Of a stretch of DNA of 64,000 nucleotides, positions 118 to 63,064 are shown one piece after another (position 1 is the first letter of the stretch; every line of letters begins with the position of its first letter). Under the pieces are notes generated by a model. That model ran no database searches, was not told the origin of the DNA, and saw only the letters and a program-made list of their open reading frames with translations. Origin of the DNA: Salinivirgaceae bacterium. Lineage in GTDB: Bacteria; Bacteroidota; Bacteroidia; Bacteroidales; SZUA-534. The DNA is taken from assembly GCA_017557605.1 (NCBI GenBank), contig JAFYYJ010000044.1:19655-83654 (forward strand), given 5' to 3'. The position numbers were made by a program, and so were the translations under genes.

Positions 118-147
118 ACGATAACACTGACACTAACGCTGACGTAA
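118..147 (+). repeat. ACGATAAC/ACTGAC word-repeat element, copy 1
   Basis: The sequence 'acgataacactgacactaacgctgacgtaa' lies upstream of the kinase gene. The same syllables occur in the copies at 8.8, 13.9, 15.4 and 25.1 kb. Confidence 0.7.
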
Positions 148-196
148 GCAACCTACTTATAACTTAAAACTTCAAACACTAAACGCTACCCTTTCA

Positions 197-8783: not shown

Positions 8784-8909
8784 ATGGGGCGAATAACTGA
8801 AACGATAACTATGACGATAACGATAACTAAAACGATGACGATAACAGAAACGATGACGATGACGAAAACACAGACTAAAAATGAGGGCAGAATTGATGGT
8901 TTATCATAA
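8784..8909 (+). repeat. ACGATAAC word-repeat element, copy 2 (contains a 41-codon Thr-alternating mini-ORF)
   Basis: Tandem 'acgataac', 'atgacgata' and 'acgatgacg' syllables. The ATG-initiated frame reads MGRITETITMTITITKTMTITETMTMTKTQTKNEGRIDGLS. Confidence 0.7.
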
Positions 8910-13112: not shown

Positions 13113-13865
13113 ATGGCACAGAACAAAGTTATTTCGTGCATTCCAAACACCATAACACTGATGAACGCCTTATCGGGTTGTTTGTCAATAGTTTTCGCCT
13201 TTACTGGTAATCTTACATTAGCCGGATTGTTCATCCTGATAGCCGCAGTGTTCGACTTCTTCGACGGTATGGCGGCCCGTCTGCTTCACGTTTCATCGGC
13301 CATAGGCAAAGAACTCGACTCGCTTGCCGACGATATCAGTTTTGGCGTGGCTCCTTCGGCTATCGCCTTTATGCTTGTCAGCCAGCGGCTTAACCCCGAC
13401 GGCGCTAACATTGCCGACCTTCCGCTTGGCACAATGTTGCTCTGCCTGTTGCCGTTTGTAATGGCGGCTTTCTCGGCTCTGCGTCTTGCCAAATTCAACC
13501 TTGATGAGCGCCAGACTGACAAATTCATCGGCGTACCTACTCCGGCCAACGCTATGCTGTGGGCGTCGCTGCCATTCATCGCCAAATACAATGCCGACGG
13601 ATTTTTCGCGCACTATGTGATAACCGCCGAGGTGATGCTGCCGTTGTGTGTTGTGATGTCGCTGTTGCTGGTGTGCGAACTGCCACTTATCTCGCTGAAA
13701 TTCAAGACCTGGGATTTCGGCAGCAACAAAGCCCGTTACATCTTCATCGCTATCTGCGCCGTGCTGATTGCCACAATGCAGGTTGCCGCCATTCCCGCAA
13801 TATTGGCGGTTTATGTTGTTGTTTCGTTGTTCTGTATGAAGGAGAACGATGACGAAAAACGATAA
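13113..13865 (+). CDS. pssA: CDP-diacylglycerol--serine O-phosphatidyltransferase (CDP-alcohol phosphatidyltransferase family)
   Basis: Signature 'DFFDGMAARLLHVSSAIGKELDSLADDISFG' (DGx2ARx8Gx3Dx3D) in a multi-TM protein. Confidence 0.85.
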   Translation: MAQNKVISCIPNTITLMNALSGCLSIVFAFTGNLTLAGLFILIAAVFDFFDGMAARLLHVSSAIGKELDSLADDISFGVAPSAIAFMLVSQRLNPDGANIADLPLGTMLLCLLPFVMAAFSALRLAKFNLDERQTDKFIGVPTPANAMLWASLPFIAKYNADGFFAHYVITAEVMLPLCVVMSLLLVCELPLISLKFKTWDFGSNKARYIFIAICAVLIATMQVAAIPAILAVYVVVSLFCMKENDDEKR

Positions 13866-13950
13866 CAGAAAACGATGACGATAACACTGACGCTGACACT
13901 AACTAAAACTGAAAACTTAAACGTAAAACACTGACGCTAATGCTGACGTG
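13866..13950 (+). repeat. ACGATAAC word-repeat element, copy 3 (mini-ORF 13875..13934)
   Basis: The sequence is 'aacgatgacgataacactgacgctgacactaactaaaactgaaaacttaaacgtaaaacactga'. The mini-ORF reads MTITLTLTLTKTENLNVKH and begins 9 nt after the pssA stop. Confidence 0.7.
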
Positions 13951-13963
13951 ATTTATTCTTTTC

Positions 13964-13990
13964 GGACGTGGCAATGCCGCATCCCTACAT
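13964..13990 (+). repeat. GGACG..CGTCC-type hairpin followed by CCCTACAT (family copy)
   Basis: Arms 'ggacgtggc' and 'gccgcatcc' with a 3-nt loop, followed by 'ctacat'. It lies between the convergent pssA and kinase genes. Confidence 0.6.
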
Positions 13991-14099
13991 CGTAATTCGT
14001 AATTCAAAATTCGTAATTATCAACTCCTACATCCTAACTCCTAAATATCTTATGCCTTTTGCCTTATCACTTATCACTTGTAACTTCAAAAACTTATAA

Positions 14100-14723
14100 C
14101 TAAACATACGTCACTCCGGCAGGGAATTGCTGTTGCAGAATAATCTCCTTCATTTTCTCGTAATCAGCCTGATTATGAACAAAATCCATTTCAGTAGTGT
14201 TTATCACGACAATCGGGAACTTTAAGGCTGTCTTGAAATAGTTTAGATAGCTGTTCTGAACCTTGCTAAGGTATTCGGGGTCGATATTCTGCTCATACTC
14301 GCGCCCTCGCGCCTTGATATTACGCATCACCCGCTCAACCGACGAGTGCAGATAAACATAAAGCGAAGGCATAGGGATGTGCTGCCAGATGATGTCGAAA
14401 AGCTGACGGTAGAGACTGAACTCATCGTCCTCAAGAGTTATTCGGGCAAAAATCAGCGATTTGACAAAATAATAGTCGGCAATTGTAAGTGTCTGAAACA
14501 AATCGGTTTGCGCGATTTTATCGTTCAGCTGGCGATAACGCTCGGCCAAAAACGACAACTCGAGCGGAAAACTGTACTTGGCGGGATTGCTGTAAAACTT
14601 AGGCAGAAACGGATTGTCGGCATACTGCTCAAGCACCACGCGCGCACCCGTGTCGGCGGCAAGCATATTCACCAACGTTGACTTGCCGGCGCCTATATTT
14701 CCTTCAATTACAATATATTGCAT
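14100..14723 (-). CDS. Deoxynucleoside kinase
   Basis: P-loop 'IEGNIGAGKSTL' with dNK-family motifs 'LEQYADNPFLPKFY' and 'FLAERYRQ'. The start was set to the ATG at MQYIVIEG. Confidence 0.85.
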   Translation of the reverse strand: MQYIVIEGNIGAGKSTLVNMLAADTGARVVLEQYADNPFLPKFYSNPAKYSFPLELSFLAERYRQLNDKIAQTDLFQTLTIADYYFVKSLIFARITLEDDEFSLYRQLFDIIWQHIPMPSLYVYLHSSVERVMRNIKARGREYEQNIDPEYLSKVQNSYLNYFKTALKFPIVVINTTEMDFVHNQADYEKMKEIILQQQFPAGVTYV

Positions 14724-14835
14724 CCGTATCAGTTTTCGTAAATTGACATCAACAAAATAGATTTTATCGGCTTTGAGCGCATCGGCTTTCGGCATATTTT
14801 TTCCACAATTTAACTACATTTGAAAAAAATTACCA

Positions 14836-15402
14836 ATGAACGAGGATTTGAACAAAGCATTGGAAGTTCTGCGCGCCGGAGGTGTCATTCTGTACCCCAC
14901 CGACACCATTTGGGGCCTTGGCTGCGACGCCACCAACGCCGAAGCGGTGCGGCGCATCTACAGCATCAAACAGCGCGCCGACAACAAGTCGCTGATAGTG
15001 CTTGTCGATTCGGCTGCACGCATTGATTCATATGTGCAGAACGCACCGGAAGTGGCTTTCAGCCTTATAGAACTTGCTACATCGCCGCTGACCGTGATTT
15101 TTGAAGGGGCGAAAAACCTTGCCGACAATGTCATCAACGCCGAAGACCAGAGCGTAGGCATCCGCGTTGCCACCGACGACTTCTGCCCCACGCTCATCCA
15201 ACGGTTCCGCAAACCGATAGTCTCAACTTCGGCCAACATAAGCGGACAGCCGGCTCCGGCATGTTTCAGCGAGATTGACCAGCGCATAATCGACAGCGTC
15301 GACTATGTTGTGCGGCACCGGCAAGACGACAACTCGAAGCACAAGGCATCGGGAATTGTAAAGATTGGACGGAACGGCGAGGTGAAGGTGATAAGGGAAT
15401 AA
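14836..15402 (+). CDS. tsaC: L-threonylcarbamoyladenylate synthase (YrdC/TsaC family)
   Basis: Motifs 'ILYPTDTIWGLGCDATN' and 'KPIVSTSANISGQP' in a 188-aa ORF. Confidence 0.85.
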   Translation: MNEDLNKALEVLRAGGVILYPTDTIWGLGCDATNAEAVRRIYSIKQRADNKSLIVLVDSAARIDSYVQNAPEVAFSLIELATSPLTVIFEGAKNLADNVINAEDQSVGIRVATDDFCPTLIQRFRKPIVSTSANISGQPAPACFSEIDQRIIDSVDYVVRHRQDDNSKHKASGIVKIGRNGEVKVIRE

Positions 15403-15480
15403 AACTAGGACGATAACTGTAACGAAGACGATAACACTGACGATAACGAAAACAGAAAACTTAAACGTAAAACACTGATA
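15403..15480 (+). repeat. ACGATAAC word-repeat element, copy 4
   Basis: The sequence is 'acgataactgtaacgaagacgataacactgacgataacgaaaacagaaaacttaaacgtaaaacactga'. It shares the 30-nt tail 'gaaaacttaaacgtaaaacactga' with copy 3. There is no ATG in the Thr frame. Confidence 0.7.
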
Positions 15481-15482
15481 AT

Positions 15483-15504
15483 GACGCAAGCGTTGCGTCC
15501 CTAC
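15483..15504 (+). repeat. GACG..CGTC hairpin followed by CCCTAC (family copy; likely tsaC terminator region)
   Basis: Stem 'gacgcaa'/'ttgcgtc' with loop 'gcg', then 'cctac'. It overlaps the first codons of the track ORF, so the downstream CDS start was moved. Confidence 0.55.
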
Positions 15505-15516
15505 TTAAAACAAAAA

Positions 15517-16596
15517 ATGCGATTCGGTTCGGTTTTGATATTGCTTTTTTTGATTGCGGCTAAGGCGGCCGGACAGTCGCTTGGCGCTTTCACCGACTAC
15601 GACAAGCATTTCATCATTTTCGATGACGGCAACTTCCGCGATGTTGAGTTTCAGGAGGTGCGCTCATTTGCAATGGGCAGCGGCTGCGTGGCTTATGTCG
15701 ATAACTGGGGCTCGCTAAAGGCCTACGCCAACCATATCAGCTACGATGTGTCGCCGTCGGTTTCGGCCTACACTATGACCGACAATCTTTTCACCTTTCA
15801 GGTGGGCTCGCAACTTTATGTTTTTGAGAAGGGCGACAAACGACTGCTGTCGGCTTATACAGGCCGTTTTATGGTTGGTGACAGCATTGTGGCGTTCATT
15901 GACACCAACAAGCATTATTTCTGCGTCTACACCGGCGGCCACGTCTGGATTCTAGCCGATGTGATTGTGGAGGACGGCGCCCGATTCTGGCTTGGCGACA
16001 ACACTGTGGCTTATATCGACATACACAACATTCTGCGCCTTGTGTGCGGTATGCGCCAATACGAGTTGTTCAATGTTATAGACGACATTGAAGTTGGCTT
16101 GGGGCGCAACGTGGCGGCTTTTGTTGACAAGTCCGACGGAATTTTCAAGATTTTTTACGACGGCGAACTGCGCGACATTGAACAGTTTCCTCCAAAATCG
16201 TTCAAATGCGGATACGAGTGTGTGGCTTTTGTGAACGATGTTGAGAATTTCCGACTATTCAGCAACGGCGAGGTTTATGACATTGCCGGTTTCCAACCCG
16301 ACAATTACGAACTGCACCGCAATCTATTGGTTTACAGCCTGAACGAACAATTTTTCATTTTTAGCAACGGCGAGTCACACTTGGTGGAGAACTACATTCC
16401 GCAAAGCTACAGCATCAACGGCAACTTGCTTACCTACATTGACCAGAACGGCTATCTGTGCGTCTTCGAAAATGGCGAGAAGGTTGTGCTGTCGTACAAT
16501 GCCAACGAATACCAATCAGTTGGCGACCTTGTTATTTACAACGAAGGGCTGAACACCACCAAGATTTATTATCAAGGGAAGACTTATAAGAAGTAA
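15517..16596 (+). CDS. Secreted repeat protein of unknown function (beta-propeller-like ~40-aa repeats)
   Basis: Signal peptide 'MRFGSVLILLFLIAAKAAGQ'. There are about 8 repeats with recurring 'VA(Y/F)(I/V)D' strands. I recognise no family. Confidence 0.6.
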   Translation: MRFGSVLILLFLIAAKAAGQSLGAFTDYDKHFIIFDDGNFRDVEFQEVRSFAMGSGCVAYVDNWGSLKAYANHISYDVSPSVSAYTMTDNLFTFQVGSQLYVFEKGDKRLLSAYTGRFMVGDSIVAFIDTNKHYFCVYTGGHVWILADVIVEDGARFWLGDNTVAYIDIHNILRLVCGMRQYELFNVIDDIEVGLGRNVAAFVDKSDGIFKIFYDGELRDIEQFPPKSFKCGYECVAFVNDVENFRLFSNGEVYDIAGFQPDNYELHRNLLVYSLNEQFFIFSNGESHLVENYIPQSYSINGNLLTYIDQNGYLCVFENGEKVVLSYNANEYQSVGDLVIYNEGLNTTKIYYQGKTYKK

Positions 16597-16672
16597 TTCC
16601 CTGAGTGACAAGTGAAAAGTTACAAGTTATAAGGCTTTAGTTCCTTACTCTCTTAGCCCTAATCTCTAAACA

Positions 16673-18076: not shown

Positions 18077-18121
18077 GACAGACTGATTGACTAACTGATT
18101 AATTGACTAATTGATTGATTG

Positions 18122-18160
18122 AAAAATCAAAAAACGCAGGGACGTGGCACGCCACATCCC
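18122..18160 (-). terminator. Rho-independent terminator of the S46 peptidase gene (also a member of the GGACG hairpin family)
   Basis: 10-bp stem 'gggacgtggc'/'gccacatccc', with a G:U pair on the minus strand, followed on the minus strand by 'ttttttgattttt'. Confidence 0.7.
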
Positions 18161-18176
18161 TACATTGGTCTTATCA

Positions 18177-20312
18177 CTACTCTGCCAGAACCATTTCGTC
18201 GAGAAGATTCTGCGCACCGAAGTATTTGTCGAGAATCAGTAACACATAGCGGATATCGACCGAGATGCACTTCTGCAGTTCTTTTTCAAATGCTATGTCA
18301 CCGCTCATCGACTCCCAGTTGCCGTCGAAGGCCAAACCGATAAGCTCGCCTTTTGCATTCATTACAGGGCTGCCTGAGTTGCCGCCGGTGATGTCGTTAT
18401 TGGTGGTGAAGCAAACGTTCATCGAGCCGTCGGCATTGGCGTAGCGGCCGTAATCCTTGTTGGCGTATATGGTTTTCAGTTTTTCGGGAACGTTAAACTC
18501 GCGCTCGTCTGGATTTTCCTTCTCCATTATGCCCTCCATTGTTGTACGGTAGTCGTAGGTTGTGGCATCGGCAGGTTTGTAGCCGCCAACTGTTCCGTAG
18601 GTCAGGCGCATGGTGCTGTTGGCGTCGTAGTTGAACACGCTGTCGGGATACATCTCCATAAGACCGGCTGTGAACAGACGCATGCCTTTGGAAAGCTCCT
18701 CGTCGCCATTGTCCTCGTCAACAATCATAATCATCTGATAGAAGCTGTTGGCTGCGTCGAAAGCCGGGTCTTTCACCAAAGCCTTCATTGTCGGGTTGCG
18801 CATAAAAGCTTGATATTTAGCATCATCGCAGAATATCGATTTTGAGAACATATCATCGACATATTTATCCACGTTGCCCTTGTATTTCTTTTGGATGTCG
18901 AGCATAAAGCTGGGGTAGTTTTTCTGGTCAACATCGGCCATATATCGCTTGAACATTGCCTTTGTAACCTGTTTGTCGACATCACGGTTGTAGTCTTTCA
19001 TAAAATCGGCGAAGGCCTGTTTGCGGGTTTCCAGCACATCGTCGGGCACCTCGCCGGCAGTCAGGCTGCTAGCGAATTTCAGATGCGAGAACGCCTGTTT
19101 CAATATTTCAGAGCCTGAATATTGTGTCTCAATCAAATAGCCATAAACCGGGCTTGATTCGCTGTTCTTTTCGATACCTTTCTGAATTAGTTCAAGCGCC
19201 TGGCCATATTTCTCCTTACGGGCTGCATCAGCCTCAACCCAGTCAGCAAAATCTTTTTCTATCTTTTCCTTCTTCTCGACAATATGAAGCCGTTTCAGTC
19301 CGCGGTTCTGGCCAATCGAATATTTCCAATAGTTTGACGAGCCTGCAAATTTGGCCGAATACTGGATGCGGATTTTGTCGTTATCCTGCATGTATTCAGT
19401 CCAGATGTTCTGCTTCTCGCCGCGCACCTTGGCACGAATGGCATTGGTGACCATTGTCAGCTTCACCTCCCATGACGATATGTAGCGGTCAGTTGAGCCC
19501 GGATAGCCCATTACAAAGGCGAAGTCGCCCTCCTTGTATCCACCTAGCGAAACGGGCAGGAAATGTTTGGGTTTGTAAGGCACATTCTCCTCGGAATATT
19601 CGGCCGGCGAGCCGTCGGGAGCGCAATAGACGCGGAACATTGAGAAGTCGCCCGTGTGGCGCGGCCACATCCAGTTGTCGGTGTCTGCACCATATTTGCC
19701 AACCGACTCGGGCGGAGCAGCCACCAATCGTACGTCTTTGAATATCTGATATACAAATAGATAATAGAAGTTACCATACATCATTCCTTTCACTTTGGCA
19801 GTATAACTGGTGCTGTCGGTAGCCGCTTTGATTAACTCGTCGGAACGCGCATCGATTATCGAGTCGCGCTCAGATTCAGATGTTTTGTCGGTGATATCAG
19901 CAAGCACATTGTCGGTTACATCCTCGACGCGCACAAGCAGCCAGGCCGTTTTGCCAGGGTTGGCAAGCTCCTCGCTCTTGCTGCGGGCCACAAAACCATT
20001 GGTAAGCAGGTCATTATCGACTGTGCTGTGGCTCTGTATCTCGTCGTAGCCGCAGTGGTGGTTGGTCATCATCAAGCCTTCTGCCGACACAAACGACGCG
20101 GTGCACATTCCGCCGTCGAGCGCCACAATGGCGTCTTTCACGCAGGCCTGGTTGATATTGTAGATGTCTTCGGCTGTCAGTTTGAAACCCTCTTCGGTCA
20201 TCGTAGCCAAATTCTTCTCGATAAGGCATGGCAGCCACATTCCTTCGTCGGCGCGAGCCACAACTGATGCCAGCACAACGGCCGACACCAAAATCAAAAA
20301 TTTGTTTTTCAT
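18177..20312 (-). CDS. S46 family dipeptidyl-peptidase (DPP7/DPP11-like)
   Basis: A signal peptide is followed by the family-typical 'DEGMWLP'. The catalytic Ser context is 'GGNSGSPV'. 711 aa. Confidence 0.9.
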   Translation of the reverse strand: MKNKFLILVSAVVLASVVARADEGMWLPCLIEKNLATMTEEGFKLTAEDIYNINQACVKDAIVALDGGMCTASFVSAEGLMMTNHHCGYDEIQSHSTVDNDLLTNGFVARSKSEELANPGKTAWLLVRVEDVTDNVLADITDKTSESERDSIIDARSDELIKAATDSTSYTAKVKGMMYGNFYYLFVYQIFKDVRLVAAPPESVGKYGADTDNWMWPRHTGDFSMFRVYCAPDGSPAEYSEENVPYKPKHFLPVSLGGYKEGDFAFVMGYPGSTDRYISSWEVKLTMVTNAIRAKVRGEKQNIWTEYMQDNDKIRIQYSAKFAGSSNYWKYSIGQNRGLKRLHIVEKKEKIEKDFADWVEADAARKEKYGQALELIQKGIEKNSESSPVYGYLIETQYSGSEILKQAFSHLKFASSLTAGEVPDDVLETRKQAFADFMKDYNRDVDKQVTKAMFKRYMADVDQKNYPSFMLDIQKKYKGNVDKYVDDMFSKSIFCDDAKYQAFMRNPTMKALVKDPAFDAANSFYQMIMIVDEDNGDEELSKGMRLFTAGLMEMYPDSVFNYDANSTMRLTYGTVGGYKPADATTYDYRTTMEGIMEKENPDEREFNVPEKLKTIYANKDYGRYANADGSMNVCFTTNNDITGGNSGSPVMNAKGELIGLAFDGNWESMSGDIAFEKELQKCISVDIRYVLLILDKYFGAQNLLDEMVLAE

Positions 20313-25013: not shown

Positions 25014-25046
25014 AAAGCTTAGAGTTAAAAGTTTAGAGGTAAGAGT

Positions 25047-25114
25047 TTAGTGTTTAATTTTTTGCCTCAGTGTTATCGTCTTTGTCAGTGTTAGTGTTAT
25101 CGTCATCGTTATAG
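25047..25114 (-). repeat. ACGATAAC word-repeat element, copy 5 (mini-ORF 25047..25106)
   Basis: The minus strand reads 'aacgatgacgataacactaacactgacaaagacgataacactgagg'. The mini-ORF MTITLTLTKTITLRQKIKH starts 8 nt after the upstream rhomboid stop. Confidence 0.7.
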
Positions 25115-35482: not shown

Positions 35483-35486
35483 TACT

Positions 35487-36974: not shown

Positions 36975-37026
36975 AACCTGAACTTCTAAATTCTCAACTT
37001 TAAAATCAATAAATCAACAATTATAA

Positions 37027-38346: not shown

Positions 38347-38400
38347 ATAAGGGTGTTAGGTGTTGGGTGTTAGTGGGTTAGTATAATTACGAGCGGTTAC

Positions 38401-38453
38401 TAAACAGCGAAGCACTAAACTTTCTCAACCTTAAACTTATTAAACAGCGAAGC
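38401..38453 (+). repeat. Direct repeat 'taaacagcgaagc' x2 containing GCGAAGC mini-hairpin words
   Basis: 13-mers at 38401-38413 and 38441-38453. The heptamer GCGAAGC is at 38407-38413 and 38447-38453. Confidence 0.85.
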
Positions 38454-38507
38454 GTTTCAACCTGTTCAACTTAAAACTTCGAGAACTTCGAACTTAAAAC
38501 TTTAACA

Positions 38508-39158
38508 ATGCCGCAGCGATTCGACCACAGCGTTGACCAATACATCGAGGAGCACACAACAGCCGCGAGCGACTTGCTCAACGAATTGGAGCGTCAGACC
38601 TACCTGAAAATCCTTCGTCCGCAGATGGTGGCTGGGCACCTTCAGGGTAAGGTTTTGGAGATGATGTGCCGGATGATACGCCCGCAGCGCGTGCTCGAGT
38701 TGGGCACCTTTACGGGATATTCGGCTCTGTGTATGGCCGCCGGAATGCCCGAAGGCTCTGTCTTACACACCATTGATGTGAACGATGAGCTGGAGGATTT
38801 CACACGCTCGTTTCTCGACCGCAGCCCTTACGCCAACCGCATTGTCTATCATTTGGGCGATGCGCGGCAGATTGTCCCCACTCTGGGCGGCAATTTCGAT
38901 TTGGTTTTTATCGATGCCGACAAACGCGAATATCCCGAATACTACAACCTGATAATCGGTGAAGTACGCACGGGCGGCTTCATTGTTGCCGACGATGTGC
39001 TGTGGTACGGCAAAATCAACGGCGACACGCCCCACAGCGACAACCACACCGCCGGTCTTCAGCAATTCAACGATATGGTCCACAACGACTCGCGCGTCGA
39101 AAACGTGCTGTTCCCAATCCGCGACGGATTGATGGTGATGCAGAAAATCAAGGATTGA
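38508..39158 (+). CDS. Class I SAM-dependent O-methyltransferase (caffeoyl-CoA OMT-like, family 3)
   Basis: Motifs 'VLELGTFTGYSAL' and 'FDLVFIDADKREY'. 216 aa. Confidence 0.85.
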   Translation: MPQRFDHSVDQYIEEHTTAASDLLNELERQTYLKILRPQMVAGHLQGKVLEMMCRMIRPQRVLELGTFTGYSALCMAAGMPEGSVLHTIDVNDELEDFTRSFLDRSPYANRIVYHLGDARQIVPTLGGNFDLVFIDADKREYPEYYNLIIGEVRTGGFIVADDVLWYGKINGDTPHSDNHTAGLQQFNDMVHNDSRVENVLFPIRDGLMVMQKIKD

Positions 39159-39554
39159 CTGATTGACTGATTGATTAATAGAATAACTGAAGGATTGAAG
39201 GCAGAAGTTACTAGTTACAAGTGACAAGGCATAAGGCAAAAGGCATAAGGGGGAATGATTAATGATTAGTGATTAATGATAGATGTAGGGACTCGCACTG
39301 CCACATCCGCATAAAGGCAGTAATACACTGCAAGTGTCTGAAGTCTGTTGTCCGTTGTCTGTAGTCCAATTAAATTCCACCCCCCGAAACCATTCACTCG
39401 TCGGGTTAAACGATGCGGTTCACCGATATAGGCTTTCAGAACACTCACAACCACAATACTTTTGCCACTGCAAACAAAAAGGTGCGCAACTGCAGAACAT
39501 TTTTTCGTTTGCGTTGTCAATAAACGTATTTTTAAACCGTAAAAAACTTGAATT

Positions 39555-43269: not shown

Positions 43270-43295
43270 AGATATCGGGTGTTAGGTGTTGGGGG

Positions 43296-44747: not shown

Positions 44748-45542
44748 TCAATCCATTCCCGCCATATACGATATGGTTGCATCGGTGTCATCGGTGTTTT
44801 TGGTTTCGACATCATCGCTGAACGTGAGAGCCGACACCACAAAAATTATGAACGCCGCGCATCCGAACAGAAATATTATCCAAATAAGATTCTTATTCTG
44901 ATAATGAAGAACCCAGTGGCGGTCATCTTCATCGCCAAATACAGAGGCGTATGTATCCTTGCTGACATACAGTTTCATTTTCCGCCCTATAGCGGGAGAA
45001 CCCGACAACTCGTAAGTTTCCGTCTTGCCGTCGATACTGTATTCTACCGTAAAATATGAGCTTTTGTTGTTCGAATTTCCGCGTTTGTGATTCGAACCAC
45101 TCTCTGTCCGTTTACTGATAACTGTGCCTTCAACCTCAATGCCCATGGCTTTCTTCTCGCGGTCGCTCAACACTATCACAACGCCTATGGTAATGAGTAC
45201 CAGACTGATACCCATACCAACCTTGAATATTGCCCAGTCGCGCTTCGGTTTTTCGGGCTGACTTTCGGGCTGCGGTTGCGGTTCGTTTGAGCGCTCATAC
45301 ACACTCCCGCGTTTGTAAGCCCGCCGCGCACGGATAATTATCGTCAGCGACGGAACTATGAACGCCAGCGGGAACGCAAGGAGCATTATTATGCCGCCAA
45401 TTGTCCACGCCCTATCCGCAATTGTTTGTAACTCAAACAAATGTTTGATTCCTGCATAAACGACATAACAAATTGGCGGAAGTGAGATTAACCCGATAAT
45501 CAGGAAAATCAATACCATGCCGTGTGTTCGCTGTGGGTTCAT
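44748..45542 (-). CDS. DUF3592-like membrane protein (divergent fourth member)
   Basis: 2 TMs, a P/Q/E linker, a TM, the segment 'VEGTVISKRTE...YFTVEYSIDGKTETYELSG...KMKLYVSKD' and a final TM. The beta-segment pattern is typical of DUF3592. Confidence 0.75.
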   Translation of the reverse strand: MNPQRTHGMVLIFLIIGLISLPPICYVVYAGIKHLFELQTIADRAWTIGGIIMLLAFPLAFIVPSLTIIIRARRAYKRGSVYERSNEPQPQPESQPEKPKRDWAIFKVGMGISLVLITIGVVIVLSDREKKAMGIEVEGTVISKRTESGSNHKRGNSNNKSSYFTVEYSIDGKTETYELSGSPAIGRKMKLYVSKDTYASVFGDEDDRHWVLHYQNKNLIWIIFLFGCAAFIIFVVSALTFSDDVETKNTDDTDATISYMAGMD

Positions 45543-45617
45543 AACTGACTGATTGAAGATTTCTCTATCTCTCTGATTCTCTAACTCTCTAATTCTCTAA
45601 CTCTCAATTCTTCCGCA

Positions 45618-46127
45618 TTAGTCTCTTTTCTTCATCCAGATTGTGCCAAGCACAAGGAACGGCGCGGCGAACAGGAGGCAGACAGCAAAACAGAGTATTG
45701 TTTCAACGTCGGCATCGGCAATGTGGTTGTCGAAAACCAAGGCTATGGGAATGGCCACCGCTATAAGCCCGATAATGAAGAAAACAAGGCCCTCCGCAAA
45801 TCGTGGGTGCTCCTGACTGAATTTCCGCGGCGGACGGAACGTGCCTGTCTTCTCTCTGATAGCGTTTTTCAGAAACGCAATGCCGCCCACAAGGAACGCA
45901 AGTGAGCACAAGCCCCAGAACGAGTACAGAAAAATGGTGACTCCTGGCGAGTACACACGTTCGTAGGGACCGCCGTTAATGGACATATTCAGATAGAACA
46001 TGTCGGGGCTGCCAATTTGGTTGTAAAGGACAATTGCCATAATCGTCAACGACGCCAACCCGAAAAACATAAAAAACGCCGCGATAGCCCATTTGTTCGT
46101 TATTGGTTTTGAAAATCCTACACGCAT
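45618..46127 (-). CDS. Four-TM membrane protein, paralogue 1
   Basis: 'MRVGFSKPITNKWAIAAFFMFFGLASLT...'. It aligns along its full length with the ORF at 46309..46827. Confidence 0.75.
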   Translation of the reverse strand: MRVGFSKPITNKWAIAAFFMFFGLASLTIMAIVLYNQIGSPDMFYLNMSINGGPYERVYSPGVTIFLYSFWGLCSLAFLVGGIAFLKNAIREKTGTFRPPRKFSQEHPRFAEGLVFFIIGLIAVAIPIALVFDNHIADADVETILCFAVCLLFAAPFLVLGTIWMKKRD

Positions 46128-46308
46128 AAATTATTGATTGACTTATTGATTAATTGATTAATTGATTGACTGATTAAAGGATTGAAGGATTGACTGACTG
46201 ATTGATTGATTGACTGATTAATAGATTAACAGATTGATTGAAGGATTGAAGGATTGATTGAATAACACTCTAATTCTCTACTTTTCTATCTCTCTAATTC
46301 TCTAACTC
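46128..46308. repeat. Word-repeat spacer (GATTGA/AAGGATTGA words, then CTCTAA/TTCTCT words)
   Basis: Plus strand 46128-46263 is almost C-free G/A/T words. 46264-46308 has no G. This was read directly. Confidence 0.9.
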
Positions 46309-46827
46309 TCAATTCTCCCTCCATTCCTCTTTTTTCTTCATCCAGATTGTTCCAAGCACAAGGAACGGCGCGGCGAACAGGAGGCAAAGAGAGTATAACA
46401 CCAAATTCACGCCCGTCGCATGGTTGCCGTCGAAAACCAAGGCTATGGGAACGGCCACCGATATAAGCCCGATAATAAAGAAGACAAGGCCCGTAGCAAA
46501 ATATGGGCGCTCCTGACTGAATTTTCGCGGTGGTCGGACCGTACCTTTCTTCTCTCTGATTGCTTGTTTCAGATACGCAATGCCGCCCGCAACGAAGGCA
46601 AGCGAGCCCAAGCCCCAGAACGAGAACCAAAAAATGGTGGTTCCTGGCGAGTACACACGTTCGTAGGGGCCGCCGTTAGTGGACACATTCTGATAGAACA
46701 TGTCGGGGTCGCCAATGTTGTTGCAAATGACGATTATCATACCCGTCAACGACGCCAACCCGAATAACATAAAAACCGCCGCTTTAGCCCATTTATTCGT
46801 TATTGATTTATAAATTCCTACACGCAT
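46309..46827 (-). CDS. Four-TM membrane protein, paralogue 2
   Basis: 'MRVGIYKSITNKWAKAAVFMLFGLASLT...'. It is a tandem duplicate of 45618..46127. Confidence 0.75.
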   Translation of the reverse strand: MRVGIYKSITNKWAKAAVFMLFGLASLTGMIIVICNNIGDPDMFYQNVSTNGGPYERVYSPGTTIFWFSFWGLGSLAFVAGGIAYLKQAIREKKGTVRPPRKFSQERPYFATGLVFFIIGLISVAVPIALVFDGNHATGVNLVLYSLCLLFAAPFLVLGTIWMKKKEEWREN

Positions 46828-46928
46828 AAATTATTGATTGATTTATTGATTAATAGATTGATTGACTGATAGACTAATTGAAGGATTGAGGGATTGAAGG
46901 ATTGAATTGCATACAACTGAATATTTGC

Positions 46929-47145
46929 GTATGAAGTAATTGTCTGAAAGACAACATTTTCATAACCGGGGGTTAAGCGAAGCGCAACCCGCGGATAACG
47001 ACACATATCTGACACCAGTCTGGAAGACTGAACCTTTTTAATGTTCACTCTTTCAGAGTGTTGCTCTGCGTGGTACTTCGACCGGAGGCTGCGCTTCGCT
47101 TGCGTCCGGATATGCAGATTCAGTCCTTCGGACTGCTCTTTTAAG
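46929..47145 (+). ncRNA. Candidate structured small RNA, antisense in orientation to the surrounding locus
   Basis: A -7-like box 'aataTTTG' (46920-46927) is followed by six hairpins: 46930-46964, 46967-46993, 47016-47030, 47046-47060, 47082-47109 and 47121-47135. The last is C(UUCG)G followed by 'ctctttt'. A 12-nt long-range complement links 46975-46986 and 47090-47101. Confidence 0.35.
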
Positions 47146-47239
47146 TTTGTTGTTATACTATATCCATACATTTTTAATTCTAACATTCAGTTATTCACAC
47201 ATTCAATCCTTCTCTCCTTCACGCATTCAGTTATTGTCT

Positions 47240-48010
47240 TTACCAACTTCCGCTGGCGCCGCCGCCGCCGAAGTGTCCGCCGCCAAATCCACCAAAACTA
47301 CTGTGACTAAATCCGCCACCCGAACTCCTACCGCCTGAACTCCAGTCGCTTGAATGCCAAGTGCCCGAACGGTAAACCGACGAACCTGGCGTAGTGTAAT
47401 GGTTCTTGCTGAACTTTAACGCCAGCAAAACAGTAACTACAATAAAGACAAGGAAAAAGACAATGGCGGCAATGTCGCCCGCAGTGTGCTCAATGTGCTG
47501 GTCGGCAGGTTGGAACTCGCCTTTAGTCATCGCAATGCAGGCATCCACAGCCTCGTCAATTCCCTCGTAAATCTCATTCTGGCGGAAATGCGGAATCATC
47601 TTGTAATTGATTATCCAACTGCACCTTGCGTCGGGAATGAGCGACTCAATGCCATAGCCCGTCTGAATGGTTACGCGCCCCGACTCGTAGTCGGTTTTCG
47701 GTTTATAGACAATGACAATGCCGTTGTCGAAGCCGTTCTGACCAACGCCCCAGCCCTCGCCCAACCGCTGGCCGAAGTCGGCAACATCGTAGCCGTGCAG
47801 GTTGGTTGTGGTGTAAATCAGAATCTGCGTGGAGGTCTCACGGTTGAAGGCTTCAAGTTTTTCGGTCAAGGCCGCGTGCTGCTCGTCGGTGAAGGCGTTG
47901 GCGCTGTCAACCACAAGCGCCTGCTCCGCTGGACGGCTGAAAATTTCGTCATCGGCAAACGAGGTAACCGTTGCCGCTAAAAATGTGATTATTAATAATA
48001 TCCGTTTCAT
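47240..48010 (-). CDS. TPM domain-containing protein (YgcG-like), paralogue 1
   Basis: Signal peptide, TPM core ('VVDSANAFTDEQHAAL...ILIYTT...GWGVGQNGFDNGIVIV'), a TM and a Gly-rich tail 'GGFGGGHFGGGGASGSW'. Confidence 0.85.
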   Translation of the reverse strand: MKRILLIITFLAATVTSFADDEIFSRPAEQALVVDSANAFTDEQHAALTEKLEAFNRETSTQILIYTTTNLHGYDVADFGQRLGEGWGVGQNGFDNGIVIVYKPKTDYESGRVTIQTGYGIESLIPDARCSWIINYKMIPHFRQNEIYEGIDEAVDACIAMTKGEFQPADQHIEHTAGDIAAIVFFLVFIVVTVLLALKFSKNHYTTPGSSVYRSGTWHSSDWSSGGRSSGGGFSHSSFGGFGGGHFGGGGASGSW

Positions 48011-48064
48011 TTTTCAATCTTTCAATCCTTCAGTTATTCAATCCTTCAATTAATCAATCCTTGT

Positions 48065-54356: not shown

Positions 54357-55001
54357 TCATTCCAAACGTGCAAACTCAAACCCCAAATCGGTAAAATGCT
54401 GAAGCACACGCGGCAAGGCGAAATACAGATTCATACGCGCCTTCATTGAGTCGTGGAAGGTGATTATGGAGCCGCCGGTGGCGTATTTCAGCACGCAGTT
54501 GCAGCACTCGTGTGGTTTCACGCGGTGATTGTAGTCCTCTGGCATCACGTCCCACAAAATCATACGGTAGCCCTGTTGGCGCAACGGCTCAATCTGTTTT
54601 TTGGTGAACCGTCCGTAAGGCGGGCGCATCAGCTTCGAATCAACATACTGCGAGGCCAAATCCACATCGTCAATATATTCCTTCGCACTTACGTGCCAGC
54701 CGTTCAAATGGCTGTAGGTGTGGTTACCGACGGCGTGGCCCTCATCAATTATGCGGCGATAGATTTCGGGATAATGGTCAACATTGCGGCCAAGGCAGAA
54801 GAAAGTAGCCTTTGCGTTGTATTCGGCCAGATTATTGAGCACCCACTCGGTAACTTCGGGCGTCGGTCCGTCATCGAAAGTCAGATAGAGTGTCTTGGGG
54901 GCACCCTCAACTTTCCATTGAAACTTCGGGAAAAAACGCCTTACAAACTGCGGCGGATGATTTATTACTCGAATCACTTCTGTCGTTTTTACAGGCCGCA
55001 A
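54357..55001 (-). CDS. Polysaccharide deacetylase (NodB homology domain, CE4)
   Basis: Motifs 'LTFDDGP' and 'GNHTYSH'. The start is uncertain, because the ORF opens with TTG and has no upstream ATG. Confidence 0.8.
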   Translation of the reverse strand: MRPVKTTEVIRVINHPPQFVRRFFPKFQWKVEGAPKTLYLTFDDGPTPEVTEWVLNNLAEYNAKATFFCLGRNVDHYPEIYRRIIDEGHAVGNHTYSHLNGWHVSAKEYIDDVDLASQYVDSKLMRPPYGRFTKKQIEPLRQQGYRMILWDVMPEDYNHRVKPHECCNCVLKYATGGSIITFHDSMKARMNLYFALPRVLQHFTDLGFEFARLE

Positions 55002-55092
55002 AGATAATGATTAATGTAGGAATGATTAATGTTTAATGAGTAAAGTATAATGGTTTCTTCACTCATTCATCACGATAGCTATCAGGTTTCAA

Positions 55093-57597: not shown

Positions 57598-57608
57598 ATC
57601 TTTTGTTT

Positions 57609-61780: not shown

Positions 61781-61864
61781 GATTTATGGTTAATGATTAA
61801 TCTTTTATCATTTATCACTAATCACTAACTCCTAACTTATCACTTGTAACTTATAACTTTCAAC

Positions 61865-63064
61865 TTAAATCGTCCTTCCCGGATATTGCTCAAGCGCAAC
61901 GGCTAACACGTTGAGAGCCTGTGCCAAATCCTCTTTTTTCAGCACGTAGGCAATGCGCGCCTCGTTGCGGCCAAGTTCGGGTGTAGTGTAGAATCCGCTT
62001 GCCGGAGCTAGCATAACTGTCTGACCTTCATACTCAAAGTCGCGCAGCAACCACTCGCAGAACTTGTCGATGTCGTCCACTGGCAGTTTGGCTACCGTAT
62101 AGAACGCGCCCATTGGTATCGGTGTGTAGCAGCCCGGAATCTTGTTCAGTCCGTCAATCAGGAACTTACGGCGCTCAACAAACTCATCATAGGTGTTGAG
62201 CATATAATCTTCAGGCGTGTCGATTGACGCTTCGGCAATTATCTGTCCGATGAGCGGCGGACACAACCTCGCCTGACAGAATTTCATTACGCAGGCGCGA
62301 ACCTCTTCGTTCTTTGTGATGAGTGCGCCAATGCGGATACCGCACTCGCTGTATCGTTTTGAAACAGAGTCGATTAGAATTACATTCTGTTCTATTCCCT
62401 CAAGGTTGAATGCCGAAATGTAGGGCGCACCCGTGTAGCAGAACTCGCGGTAAACTTCGTCAGAGAAAAGGAACAGGTTGTGCTTCTTCACTATATCGCG
62501 TAACTGATTCATTTCCTTGCGGGTATAAAGGTACCCCGTTGGGTTGTTTGGATTGCAGATGAGGATGCCCTTGGTGCGTTCGGTAATCAGCGCCTCGAAT
62601 TTGTCCATCGACGGAAGTGCGAAACCATCATCGATAGTCGACGGAATGGTCTTGATGACCGCACCTGCCGAAATTGCGAAAGCCATATAGTTGGCGTAAG
62701 CCGGCTCCGGTACAATGATTTCGTCGCCTGGGTCGAGGCACGACATAAACGAGAACAGCACCGCTTCCGAACCGCCCGTGGTGATGATGATGTCCTCAAC
62801 GTTGGCGTTGATGTTGAACTTGGCGTAGTAAGACACCAACTTCGCCCGCAGACTCAAAAGACCTTCGCTGGGGGTGTATTCCAATACTTTACGGTCGATT
62901 TTCTTCATCGCTTCCAAACCCACTTCCGGTGTCGGAAGGTCGGGCTGGCCGATGTTCAGGTGATAGACTTTGATTCCTTTCTTTTTTGCAGCGTTTGCAA
63001 GCGGCACCAATCGGCGGATTGGCGACGACGGCATAATTATACCGCGTTCTGATATTTTTGGCAT
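61865..63064 (-). CDS. Pyridoxal-phosphate-dependent aminotransferase (class I/II, aspartate aminotransferase-like)
   Basis: Motifs 'NIGQPDLPTP', 'NPNNPTG' and the PLP-Lys context 'DSVSKRYSECGIRIG'. 399 aa. Confidence 0.85.
   Translation of the reverse strand: MPKISERGIIMPSSPIRRLVPLANAAKKKGIKVYHLNIGQPDLPTPEVGLEAMKKIDRKVLEYTPSEGLLSLRAKLVSYYAKFNINANVEDIIITTGGSEAVLFSFMSCLDPGDEIIVPEPAYANYMAFAISAGAVIKTIPSTIDDGFALPSMDKFEALITERTKGILICNPNNPTGYLYTRKEMNQLRDIVKKHNLFLFSDEVYREFCYTGAPYISAFNLEGIEQNVILIDSVSKRYSECGIRIGALITKNEEVRACVMKFCQARLCPPLIGQIIAEASIDTPEDYMLNTYDEFVERRKFLIDGLNKIPGCYTPIPMGAFYTVAKLPVDDIDKFCEWLLRDFEYEGQTVMLAPASGFYTTPELGRNEARIAYVLKKEDLAQALNVLAVALEQYPGRTI

What the first reader, a model, noticed from the sequence alone, without database searches (positions are those of the whole stretch)
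46128..46308. Strand-specific three-letter pattern in intergenic spacers: C-depleted words after stop codons, G-depleted words before start codons
Most spacers in this window are concatenations of short words, such as GATTGA, AAGGATTGA, CTCTAATTCTCT, TAACTT, GGTGTTAG and ATGATTAAT. Each word set uses essentially three of the four bases.

Read on the sense strand of the flanking genes, the segment right after a stop codon is C-poor:
- 46264-46308 has no G on plus, so no C on the gene strand.
- 38347-38386 has no C.
- 39159-39285.
- 61790-61864 and 13996-14099, read on minus.
- Both halves of the convergent spacer 16597-16672.

The segment right before a start codon is G-poor: 150-196, 38399-38507, 46128-46263, 46828-46910, 18077-18120 and 43270-43295. 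Where a terminator hairpin exists, it sits between the two segments. One short spacer (48011-48064) contains only the after-stop type.

Identical words recur far apart. For example, 'ataaggcaaaaggcataag' at ~39.23 kb matches its complement at ~14.06 kb. A three-letter alphabet cannot form G:C pairs. G-depletion upstream of starts would therefore keep initiation regions unfolded, which fits the known Shine-Dalgarno-independent, structure-sensitive initiation of Bacteroidota. The C-depleted post-stop modules have no obvious explanation.
Basis: partly seen in the sequence, partly recalled or inferred. Interest (0 to 1): 0.65.

Follow-up and report, generated by a model that had tools for sequence, protein, structure and literature searches.

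The report
Polarised short tandem repeats between genes
About half of the gaps between genes in this uncultured ruminant-gut Bacteroidales genome are filled with unstable 6-8-base tandem repeats that lack C just after stop codons and lack G just before start codons, a polarity already reported for heptamer repeats in Xanthomonas and Nostoc and still without a proven function.

Summary
Spacers hold 23 runs of 30 nt or more with no G or no C, against 10.7±2.6 in shuffles.

The "words" are imperfect tandem arrays with units of 6, 7 or 8 nt. They cover 16% of intergenic bases and 0.14% of coding bases.

In this clade, arrays next to a stop are C-poor on the sense strand (14 of 16). Arrays next to a start are G-poor (8 of 10). 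Fisher p=3e-6.

G-poor leaders are general in Bacteroidales. C-poor trailers are specific to this clade.

The arrays are transcribed, mostly lie inside operons, are unstructured, and vary in length between strains. They also mark the breakpoints of a gene duplication/deletion.

The same (GAAGGATT)n arrays, in the same order (C-poor, then G-poor), occur in metagenome contigs of 31-68% GC.

The same polarity was published for Xanthomonas and Nostoc heptamers (PMC4692102). I therefore rate this a new variant of a known kind.

The leader half fits Shine-Dalgarno-independent initiation. The trailer half remains unexplained. A test for direction-specific enrichment of stop codons failed.

The parts
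118..149 (+). Hexamer trailer (GATAAC/ACTGAC/GCTGAC) directly after the stop of the upstream rlmH-like gene. T-poor, holds both G and C.
150..196 (+). G-poor heptamer leader (ACTTAAA type) ending at the start of the histidine kinase gene 197..3853.
   Evidence: G1/C14. TRF period 7. No -7 promoter box.
8793..8869 (-). Hexamer array in the opposite orientation (GTTATC/GTCATC on the gene strand), 97 nt upstream of the start of 3856..8703.
13866..13950 (+). Hexamer/heptamer trailer after the stop of 13113..13865.
13959..13990 (.). GC-rich hairpin (GTAGGGATGCGGC...GCCACGTCC) between the two trailers of a convergent gene pair. One of three copies of this hairpin in the window.
13996..14099 (-). C-poor patchwork of heptamer arrays (AAGTTAC, AAGTGAT, AAGGCAT, TAGGAGT, ATTACGA) after the stop of 14100..14795.
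   Evidence: C5/G25 on minus..
15403..15480 (+). Hexamer array filling the whole spacer between 14836..15402 and 15481..16596.
   Evidence: MFE -1.3 kcal/mol, z=+1.76.
16597..16672 (.). Convergent spacer in which each half is a C-poor heptamer trailer on its own gene strand. On plus it reads C-poor, then G-poor.
   Evidence: Not a hairpin: z=+0.58.
18077..18122 (-). G-poor octamer leader (TCAATCAA/TTAGTCAA) ending 4 nt before the start of the radC-like gene.
18128..18170 (-). Terminator-like hairpin with a T run, lying between the stop of 18177..20312 and the G-poor leader.
   Evidence: z=-4.39..
25014..25114 (-). Two-module spacer: a hexamer trailer (25065-25114) followed by a G-poor heptamer leader (25014-25064).
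   Evidence: z=+0.52.
36975..37026 (+). Single-module spacer, G-poor, leader of rseP.
   Evidence: G1 of 52 nt. MFE 0 kcal/mol.
38347..38389 (+). C-free GGTGTTA heptamer trailer after the rseP stop.
38397..38507 (+). G-poor leader of the O-methyltransferase gene. It holds a 41-nt direct repeat carrying AAACAGCGAAGC, followed by AACTTAA heptamers.
39159..39285 (+). C-poor patchwork trailer (GATTGACT, AAGTTAC, AAGGCAT, AATGATT). Its first unit overlaps the stop codon. A hairpin-like copy of the GTAGGGA element follows.
43270..43295 (-). Short G-poor spacer (CTAACACC type).
45543..45617 (-). Two-module spacer: a C-poor GAGAGTTA/GAGAATTA trailer (45561-45617), then a short G-poor TCAATC leader. 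The leader is 36 nt longer in a near-identical assembly.
   Evidence: z=+2.43.
46128..46263 (-). 136-nt G-poor leader array (TCAATC/CCTTCAATCC) ending 1 nt before the start of 45618..46127. This is the finding's main segment.
   Evidence: G6/C30.. An RNA contig spans 46011-46241. Length variants.
46264..46308 (-). C-free trailer (GAGAATTA/GAGAGATA) overlapping the stop of 46309..46827.
   Evidence: 0 G on plus..
46828..46910 (-). G-poor leader of 46309..46827, paralogous to 46128-46263.
   Evidence: MFE 0 kcal/mol. 12-nt deletion variant in an RNA contig.
46905..47193 (-). Structured insertion lying between the trailer and the leader and absent in other strains. It is annotated as a 122-aa ORF, which is probably spurious.
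   Evidence: z=-6.3. Contigs of other strains skip 46905->47193, 46864->47169 and 46869->47225.
47187..47239 (-). C-poor trailer after the stop of 47240..48010 (TAACTGAA/GAAGGA words).
48011..48064 (-). Single-module spacer, C-poor (AAGGATTGA), running from stop to start.
   Evidence: C2/G13..
55005..55043 (-). G-poor heptamer array (ATTAATC) upstream of the -7 promoter box of 54357..54977.
61790..61864 (-). C-poor heptamer trailer after the stop of 61865..63064, followed at about 61752-61785 by a hairpin with a T run.
   Evidence: C2/G16..

Best explanation
The spacers are filled with simple-sequence repeats. These are short imperfect tandem arrays of 6-8 nt units that arise and turn over by replication slippage and unequal recombination. 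Each array uses about three letters because its unit is so short.

Most arrays lie inside transcribed, operon-internal spacers or in 3' trailers. Which strand of an array ends up as mRNA is filtered by what the mRNA tolerates at each gene boundary.

- Next to a start codon, only the G-poor orientation persists. It cannot fold, carries almost no AUG/GUG/UUG, and has no purine-rich blocks. That suits the Shine-Dalgarno-independent, structure-sensitive initiation of Bacteroidota.
- Next to a stop codon, the C-poor orientation persists. It is automatically dense in stop triplets, often begins at the stop codon itself, and is not complementary to the leader words. The whole spacer therefore stays single-stranded.

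Shown: the tandem-repeat nature, instability, transcription, polarity, lack of structure and operon-internal position.

Inferred: that selection on the mRNA, rather than a mutational bias, sets the polarity, and what the benefit of the C-poor trailer is.
For: - Units of 6, 7 and 8 nt in head-to-tail arrays.
- 16% of intergenic bases against 0.14% of coding bases lie in arrays.
- Between near-identical assemblies, the only indel in 20.6 kb is a 36-nt gain of GATT units. Other length variants and array-bounded deletions are seen in other strains.
- Polarity: stop-abutting arrays are 14 C-poor, 0 G-poor and 2 neither. Start-abutting arrays are 0, 8 and 2. Fisher p=3e-6.
- Spacer-level polarity in the clade: p=6e-4 and 4e-3.
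- At orthologous spacers in genomes whose RseP is 86-89% identical, the trailer units differ while their composition class is kept. The leaders keep both class and part of their sequence.
- Twelve stop-abutting arrays start at or overlap the stop codon.
- No TAnnTTTG -7 box lies in any spacer where a G-poor array reaches the start, whereas 12 other genes have one 17-39 nt upstream.
- RNA contigs run from coding sequence into the arrays.
- Array spacers are unstructured: mean z=0.03 against -1.16 in array-poor relatives, p=0.015.
- NTG start triplets in G-poor arrays: 1 observed against 5.0 in shuffles and 7 in reversed sequences.
- 17 of 22 C-poor arrays have stops in all three frames.
- Published: AUG is under-represented and pairing is low in Bacteroidetes initiation regions (PMC6847099).
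Against: - Stop triplets and ATG show no direction-specific bias against the reversed-sequence control: stops 115 vs 105, ATG 12 vs 4. Stop density is therefore a by-product of C-free composition and is not evidence of selection for stops.
- A G-poor trailer would be just as unstructured, and several short spacers have one (17321-17383, 36975-37026, 43270-43295). Two spacers have C-poor words right up to the start codon (47187-47239, 48011-48064).
- The same polarity is reported in Shine-Dalgarno-using Xanthomonas and in Nostoc, so the cause may be more general.
- In 18 of 39 metagenome loci the two modules are complementary and form very stable hairpins. That is the opposite of "keep it unfolded".
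- Arrays are correlated copies and two spacer pairs are paralogous, so the effective sample sizes are smaller than the counts.
Confidence: 0.4

Rival explanations
1. Control of Rho loading. G-poor, C-rich, unstructured modules are Rho-loading (rut-like) sites placed on whichever strand is read towards a gene. C-poor modules are stretches that resist Rho. In the sense direction, a leader that is not being translated would trigger polarity. In the antisense direction, the complement of a trailer would stop transcripts from running into the gene's 3' end.
For: - The rule does not change when the strands are swapped: on either strand every spacer type reads C-poor, then G-poor (metagenome loci 32 vs 9). 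A transcription-level cause would predict this.
- 46128-46263 is 136 nt with C30/G6, regularly spaced TC dinucleotides and almost no structure.
Against: - No functional data are available.
- A 136-nt rut-like leader inside an operon would be expected to be harmful.
- Nostoc shows the same polarity, and cyanobacteria lack Rho (my own knowledge).
- All-G-poor and all-C-poor spacers both exist.
Confidence: 0.15
2. Arms of terminator or stabiliser hairpins. The two modules are the 5' (G-rich) and 3' (C-rich) arms of long hairpins built from tandem units. In this clade the arms have drifted apart.
For: - In 18 of 39 metagenome loci carrying the same (GAAGGATT)n array, the spacer folds with z between -3.4 and -14. 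Its arms are AAGGATTG...CAATCCTT.
- Complement-type words lie downstream 13 times and upstream once.
- Discrete hairpins sit between the modules in the window.
Against: - In the window and its clade, the modules within a spacer use non-complementary words, and the spacers fold no better than shuffles. z ranges from +0.2 to +2.4, and for 45543-45617 all 200 shuffles fold at least as well.
- The hypothesis does not explain why the G-rich arm always comes first.
Confidence: 0.12
3. Neutral slippage plus mutational bias. The arrays have no function. Purine-rich sense strands arise from transcription-linked bias (cytosine deamination on the non-template strand, or R-loop-driven expansion of arrays that give purine-rich RNA). 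Only the general G-poor leader constraint acts on top of that.
For: - Arrays turn over fast and differ in unit between close species.
- C-poor trailers are clade-specific, while G-poor leaders are general.
- There is no direction-specific signal for stop codons.
Against: - Leader arrays stay C-rich although they are transcribed. A deamination bias cannot explain that.
- The switch between modules is sharp and lies inside a single spacer.
- The same order is seen in contigs of 31-68% GC.
Confidence: 0.15
4. Binding sites for a single-strand RNA- or DNA-binding protein (ribosomal protein S1, cold-shock or RRM-type proteins, or a nucleoid protein) that reads units spaced 7-8 nt apart.
For: - Regular 7-8 nt spacing.
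- Perfect (GAAGGATT)n is very abundant in rumen metatranscriptome contigs, with depth up to about 6200 at 46890.
- The same proposal was made for TAACTGA repeats (PMC4679880).
- G-free leaders with 8-nt direct repeats resemble the TMV omega enhancer (my own knowledge).
Against: - At least 12 different units occur in 64 kb, and units change between close relatives. This argues against a sequence-specific binder.
- No candidate protein was identified.
Confidence: 0.1

Closest known systems
G-rich heptamer repeats GGGAATC (Xanthomonas) and GGGGA(T/C)T (Nostoc), Rehm et al. 2015, PMC4692102
   Same: Intergenic tandem heptamers with the same polarity. The G-rich strand is the coding strand within 0-50 bp after the stop codon or overlapping it, and the non-coding strand within 0-50 bp before the start. 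Tandemly inverted pairs also occur.
   Different: - There, one unit per genome, chosen for its G-tracts and its ability to form quadruplexes. Here, at least 12 units, none able to form G4.
- Here the arrays are joined into patchworks.
- Those repeat-containing regions were reported as more conserved than control regions. Here the arrays are hypervariable.
- Different phyla.
TAACTGA heptamer direct repeats of Beggiatoaceae, Cyanobacteria and five Bacteroidetes, MacGregor 2015, PMC4679880
   Same: - Intergenic heptamer repeats that are unstructured as RNA and give stops in all three frames in the forward orientation.
- Found next to start or stop codons, with other heptamer repeats alongside them in Bacteroidetes spacers.
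- The word TAACTGA belongs to the vocabulary here: 13 copies, 7 of them in array spacers.
   Different: - TAACTGA is never tandem here.
- In the Beggiatoaceae genome studied there (BOGUAY), the forward orientation lies just upstream of starts. Here the corresponding C-poor words mostly follow stops, and their complements precede starts.
Long simple sequence repeats with 5-11 nt units in prokaryotes (Mrazek et al. 2007, as summarised in PMC4679880) and cyanobacterial STRR heptanucleotides (Mazel et al. 1990, my own knowledge)
   Same: Tandem short units, with heptamers prominent. They are intergenic, phylogenetically patchy, and attributed to polymerase slippage.
   Different: As far as I found, those reports do not describe a two-module G/C polarity or a patchwork of many units within one spacer.
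Shine-Dalgarno-independent initiation regions of Bacteroidetes (Baez et al. 2019, PMC6847099; Accetto and Avgustin 2011, PMC3155529)
   Same: A-rich, G-poor, weakly paired leaders with few extra AUGs. The window shows the same features.
   Different: Those are statistical properties of ordinary leaders about 20 nt long. Here the leaders are 40-136 nt tandem arrays.
TMV omega leader and CA-rich translational enhancers (my own knowledge)
   Same: G-free, unstructured, with 8-nt direct repeats. Reported to enhance translation without a Shine-Dalgarno sequence. This resemblance concerns how it may work.
   Different: Viral or eukaryotic origin with no sequence relation. The function was not tested here.

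Membership tests
Prokaryotic long simple sequence repeats (unit 5-11 nt) | Head-to-tail copies of a short unit | tested here: met
   TRF finds arrays of period 6, 7 and 8 with 2.8-14 copies.
Prokaryotic long simple sequence repeats (unit 5-11 nt) | Units that are not multiples of 3 are confined to non-coding DNA | tested here: met
   984 of 6143 intergenic nt against 80 of 57857 coding nt lie in arrays. The arrays inside genes have period 6 or 9.
Prokaryotic long simple sequence repeats (unit 5-11 nt) | Copy number varies between strains | tested here: met
   Variants seen: 36-nt gain, 12-nt loss, 58-nt and 64-nt losses, and a 35-nt gain.
G-rich heptamer repeats of Xanthomonas/Nostoc (PMC4692102) | The G-rich strand is the coding strand next to stops and the non-coding strand next to starts | tested here: met
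   14/0/2 against 0/8/2, Fisher p=3e-6.
G-rich heptamer repeats of Xanthomonas/Nostoc (PMC4692102) | G-tracts of 3 or more that can form a quadruplex | tested here: not met
   No G3+N1-7 x4 motif in any array. The single match in the window lies inside a gene at 48534.
TAACTGA direct repeats (PMC4679880) | Two or more tandem copies of TAACTGA | tested here: not met
   13 single copies and no tandem pair.
TAACTGA direct repeats (PMC4679880) | Forward orientation within a few nt upstream of a start codon | tested here: inconclusive
   One spacer ends in ...TAACTGA directly before ATG (47187-47239). Most forward-type words follow stops.
Cyanobacterial STRR | Canonical STRR heptamers in heterocystous cyanobacteria | not tested
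   The host is a Bacteroidales. I know the STRR unit sequences only from memory and did not search for them.
REP/BIME/MITE-type extragenic palindromes | The unit is a palindrome that forms a stable hairpin | tested here: not met
   Arrays fold no better than shuffles. Only the elements between modules are palindromic: the 18.13 kb hairpin (z=-4.4) and 46905-47193 (z=-6.3).
CRISPR array | Repeats of 23-50 nt separated by unique spacers | tested here: not met
   Units are 6-8 nt and directly adjacent.
Phase-variable contingency repeats | The repeat lies inside an ORF or between promoter elements, so that a copy change switches expression | tested here: not met
   Arrays lie outside ORFs. Spacers where an array reaches the start have no -7 box.
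Rho utilisation (rut) site | C>G, unstructured RNA of roughly 70 nt or more | tested here: met
   46128-46263 has C30/G6 over 136 nt and little structure.
Rho utilisation (rut) site | Rho-dependent termination downstream | not testable with these tools
   Only assembled metatranscriptome contigs without direction were available.
Shine-Dalgarno-independent Bacteroidota initiation region | No SD motif, low pairing, few extra start triplets upstream of the start | tested here: met
   SD core in 5% of leaders. MFE 0 to -3 kcal/mol. NTG triplets: 1 against 5.0 or 7 expected (p=0.02 and 0.06).

The most novel reading that the evidence does not exclude
The two-module arrangement (stop, C-free repeat array, optional hairpin, G-free repeat array, start) is a dedicated cis-acting intergenic "grammar" that is maintained across phyla. 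It would insulate neighbouring cistrons and set up translation of internal cistrons without a Shine-Dalgarno sequence. The arrays' instability would act as a tuning knob for expression and as a substrate for gene duplication and loss. The shared polarity in Bacteroidota, Xanthomonas and Nostoc would then reflect one general principle of bacterial mRNA design that has not yet been named.
Probability: 0.15. Interest if true: 0.75.

Novelty: new variant of a known kind. Interest (0 to 1): 0.5.

Why it matters
Tandem repeats of 6-8 nt between bacterial genes have been noted for decades, and their function is still unknown. This window shows three things.

1. The stop/start polarity reported for quadruplex-forming heptamers also holds for many unrelated units that cannot form quadruplexes. 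It also holds in contigs of 31-68% GC. The polarity is therefore a matter of G/C content and not of any particular motif or G4 structure.
2. In a lineage without Shine-Dalgarno sequences, long repeat leaders take the place of ordinary initiation regions inside operons. That makes the question testable with reporter constructs.
3. The arrays are hot spots of structural change, including copy-number changes, a gene duplication/deletion and an insertion.

There are practical consequences. These arrays break metagenome assemblies, extend ORFs falsely (the 122-aa ORF here), and attract reads from many genomes.

Tried and rejected
- **Hairpin arms within the window:** rejected. z ranged from +0.2 to +2.4.
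- **Selection for stop codons or against ATG in the C-poor arrays:** enrichment against mononucleotide shuffles vanished with a reversed-sequence control.
- **Tandem TAACTGA and G-quadruplex motifs:** absent.
- **GCGAAGC and AAACAGCGAAGC as a general motif:** not enriched in the window. The motif does recur at module boundaries in L002-L004.
- **Recurrent GTAGGGAYGYGGC hairpin:** three good copies, but the loose pattern count is not above chance.
- **Rfam:** only the tRNA matched.
- **Structured insertion 46905-47193:** no other copy in any fetched locus.
- **Viral contigs:** 21 hits to AAGGATTGAAGGATTGA. Most are two-copy matches, apparently by chance, inside coding-like sequence. Only L101, L104 and L109 are real arrays.
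- **Literature search for the exact repeat words:** no paper found.
- **RNA data:** only undirected assembled contigs were available, so transcript starts and ends could not be mapped.
- **Taxonomy of the high-GC carriers:** only L116 could be placed, through a SusC/RagA protein. SD usage in the GC 0.66 group was inconclusive.
- **Gene-neighbour counts in the metagenome loci:** 33 arrays follow a stop in the C-poor sense, against 10 in the G-poor sense. These counts are biased, because ORFs run through G-poor arrays; 14 arrays fell inside an ORF. I rely instead on the ORF-independent module order.
Full report

- 46264-46308 has no G on plus. 38347-38386 has no C.
- 46128-46263, read on the gene strand, has G6/C30.
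- 48011-48064 has C2/G13.
- The 19-mer at 39231 recurs as its reverse complement at 14049.

In the 38 spacers of 25 nt or more (6023 nt) there are 23 runs of at least 30 nt with no G or no C (910 nt). Shuffling within each spacer gives 10.7±2.6 runs (389±93 nt), and none of 1000 shuffles reached the observed values.

"Most spacers" is too strong. About 19 of 38 carry such sequence. The spacers of the three low-GC islands and those that carry a canonical promoter directly upstream of the start look ordinary.

**2. What are the words?**

They are not a dictionary. They are imperfect head-to-tail tandem arrays with units of 6, 7 or 8 nt. Examples are GATTGACT/TTCAATCC, TTCTCTAA, GGTGTTA, AATGATT, AAGGCAT, AAGTTAC, TCGTAAT, CTTATCA, ACTTAAA and the hexamers GATAAC/GATGAC/ACTGAC.

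Several short arrays with different units are joined end to end in one spacer. Arrays cover 984 of 6143 intergenic bases and 80 of 57857 coding bases.

A unit of 7-8 nt drawn from AT-rich sequence will often lack G or C. The three-letter look is therefore largely a consequence of tandem repetition. The polarity is not.

**3. Polarity**

- In the window alone, a blind test of the first or last 40 nt of every spacer is not significant: after stop G>C 23:12, p=0.09; before start G<C 21:14, p=0.31.
- Adding the three closest genomes (L002-L004, whose RseP is 86-89% identical) makes it significant. After stops G is 0.221 and C 0.142 (43:16, p=6e-4). Before starts G is 0.134 and C 0.177 (42:19 for C>G, p=4e-3).
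- The arrays carry the signal. Arrays within 15 nt of a stop only are 14 C-poor, 0 G-poor and 2 neither (the hexamers). Arrays within 15 nt of a start only are 0, 8 and 2. Fisher p=3e-6.
- Twelve stop-abutting arrays begin at or overlap the stop codon.
- In 69 related but array-poor Bacteroidales loci, leaders are also G-depleted (0.135 vs 0.158, p=4e-9), but trailers show no skew (0.162 vs 0.167). The leader half is therefore a general property of the order, and the trailer half is special to array carriers.

Two cautions apply.
- 45563-46201 and 46268-46905 are an 83%-identical tandem duplication of a gene together with its flanking arrays.
- The rule does not change when the strands are swapped. 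For co-directional, convergent and divergent spacers alike it reduces to "either strand reads C-poor, then G-poor". Top-strand G-C is +2.77 in the left half and -2.11 in the right half (34:16, p=0.015). The direction is the same for ++, -- and +- spacers.

**4. Context**

The window is nearly identical to a 256-kb scaffold from a gut metagenome. It recurs in bovine-gut runs. Its nearest named relatives are rumen MAGs labelled Salinivirgaceae or uncultured Bacteroidales.

Leaders lack Shine-Dalgarno cores (5%) and are A-rich and G-poor.

Twelve genes have a Bacteroidota -7 box (TAnnTTTG) 17-39 nt upstream. No spacer in which a G-poor array reaches the start codon has one. Those arrays are therefore inside operons.

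Metatranscriptome contigs run from coding sequence into the arrays (46011-46241 and 46777-46939). Perfect (GAAGGATT)n is present at very high depth in rumen RNA.

**5. Dynamics**

- Against a 99.7%-identical assembly, the only indel in 20.6 kb is a 36-nt gain of GATT units at 45543.
- Other strains show a 12-nt loss at 46855, losses of 58 and 64 nt at 46209, and a 35-nt gain at 45542-45554.
- One-copy alleles of the duplicated gene have breakpoints inside the GATTGA arrays: 45551->46153 and 45556->46189.
- Some strains lack 46905-47193. That 287-nt piece folds with z=-6.3 and sits exactly between a C-poor and a G-poor module. The 122-aa ORF called across it is probably spurious.

**6. Distribution**

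- Arrays of the same kind but with different units flank rseP in several other Bacteroidales MAGs and are absent from many more.
- One contig of GC 0.58 encodes a SusC/RagA protein, so high-GC Bacteroidota are among the carriers.
- With each locus oriented by the C-poor array, a G-free run of 20 nt or more lies within 200 nt downstream in 32 of 65 loci and upstream in 9. Complement-type words lie downstream in 13 loci and upstream in 1.
- In 18 of 39 of these loci the two modules are complementary and form very stable hairpins (z -3.4 to -14). In another 18 they do not.

**7. Structure in the window**

Array spacers fold no better than shuffles. z ranges from +0.2 to +2.4, and 45543-45617 folds worse than all 200 shuffles. 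Structure appears only where a discrete hairpin is present (18.13 kb, z=-4.4).

Across the clade, mean z is 0.03, against -1.16 in array-poor relatives (p=0.015).

**8. Codon content**

Against mononucleotide shuffles, C-poor arrays looked rich in stops (115 vs 85.8±5.6) and poor in ATG (12 vs 25.0). G-poor arrays looked poor in start triplets (1 vs 5.0).

A stricter control reads each array backwards, which keeps its composition and repeat structure. It removes the first two effects (stops 115 vs 105, ATG 12 vs 4) and leaves only the start-triplet effect in leaders (1 vs 7, p=0.06).

Stop density is therefore a by-product of the absence of C, because all three stop codons lack C. It is not evidence of selection for stops.

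**9. What is known**

- Heptamer-rich long simple sequence repeats in prokaryotes, and TAACTGA repeats in Beggiatoaceae, Cyanobacteria and five Bacteroidetes, are described in PMC4679880.
- Rehm et al. (PMC4692102) report the same polarity for GGGAATC in Xanthomonas and GGGGA(T/C)T in Nostoc. The G-rich strand is the coding strand within 50 bp after the stop or overlapping it, and the non-coding strand within 50 bp before the start.
- Bacteroidetes initiation regions are known to be weakly paired and poor in AUG (PMC6847099).
- No paper contains the octamer words found here.

**10. Mechanism**

My best reading (confidence 0.4) is as follows. The arrays are slippage-born simple repeats that fill transcribed spacers. 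Their orientation is filtered at the mRNA level. The G-poor orientation survives next to starts because it is unfolded and free of start codons, which suits Shine-Dalgarno-independent initiation. The C-poor orientation survives next to stops.

The first half is reasonably supported. The second half is not explained by my tests.

The rivals are control of Rho loading (0.15), degenerate hairpin arms (0.12), neutral slippage with a transcription-linked bias (0.15) and protein binding (0.1).

The occurrence of the same polarity in Shine-Dalgarno-using and in Rho-less bacteria argues that the true cause is more general than any of these taken alone.

**11. Verdict**

The feature is real and statistically supported. 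It belongs to a known but poorly understood class. It is a new variant because:
- many different units that cannot form G4 are joined into patchworks;
- the arrangement has two modules;
- the arrays take the place of ordinary leaders inside operons;
- the arrays are shown to be hot spots of structural variation.

I score interest at 0.5.

Noticed in passing
window 45563-46201 and 46268-46905: Tandem duplication, 83% identical, of a small membrane-protein gene (169 and 172 aa, no Pfam match) together with its flanking repeat arrays. Other bovine-gut strains carry one-copy alleles whose breakpoints lie inside the GATTGA arrays (45551->46153, 45556->46189).
   Followed up: yes
window 46905-47193 (minus strand): A 287-nt strongly structured element (MFE -93.5 kcal/mol, z=-6.3) that is absent in other strains. 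It is annotated as a 122-aa ORF (46818..47186) whose C-terminus reads through the G-poor array. The ORF is probably spurious and the element looks like a mobile insertion. No second copy exists in any fetched locus and there is no Rfam match.
   Followed up: partly
window 13959-13990, 18128-18165, 39284-39313; also in L003 and L004 spacers: A recurrent GC-rich hairpin, GTAGGGAYGYGGC...GCCACRTCC, sometimes followed by a T run. It lies between repeat modules and looks like a shared terminator or REP-like element.
   Followed up: partly
window 38402-38413 and 38442-38453; L002 2331-2776, L003 9839-10000 and 11321-11527, L004 1898-2092 and 2912-3001: The motif AAACAGCGAAGC(G), which contains the GCGAAGC mini-hairpin sequence, recurs in either orientation at the boundary between C-poor and G-poor modules in four related genomes. 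It is not enriched in the window as a whole.
   Followed up: partly
window 46876-46906 and 48013-48051: Very short (31-46 nt) metatranscriptome contigs of near-perfect (GAAGGATT)n reach depths of hundreds to thousands (up to about 6200 in run X26). This repeat is therefore abundant in rumen RNA, either because many loci carry it or because some carrier transcript is highly expressed.
   Followed up: no
window 37308-38831: All 23 substitutions between the window and a near-identical assembly (L001) cluster in this 1.5-kb stretch of rseP and the methyltransferase gene. That suggests a recombination tract.
   Followed up: no
window 9000-13000, 34200-37000, 57200-61800: Low-GC islands (33-40% against about 49%) carrying BspA-type LRR_5 proteins, DUF2971, DUF1016/YhcG, a Fib_succ_major protein and a HicA toxin gene with the adjacent 133-aa ORF (no Pfam hit), possibly its antitoxin. 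Their spacers lack repeat arrays, which suggests the arrays build up in place on resident DNA.
   Followed up: no
window 45060 and 44990-45005 (inside gene 44748..45542): Other strains carry a 21-nt in-frame deletion and several small compensating indels inside this gene of unknown function.
   Followed up: no
L116, L117, L138, L170, L175 (metagenome loci, GC 0.57-0.68): In high-GC Bacteroidota-like contigs, the same octamer arrays form long, nearly perfect hairpins, mostly between or after genes ((AAGGATTG)n ... (CAATCCTT)n, z down to -14). They probably act as terminators built from tandem repeats.
   Followed up: partly
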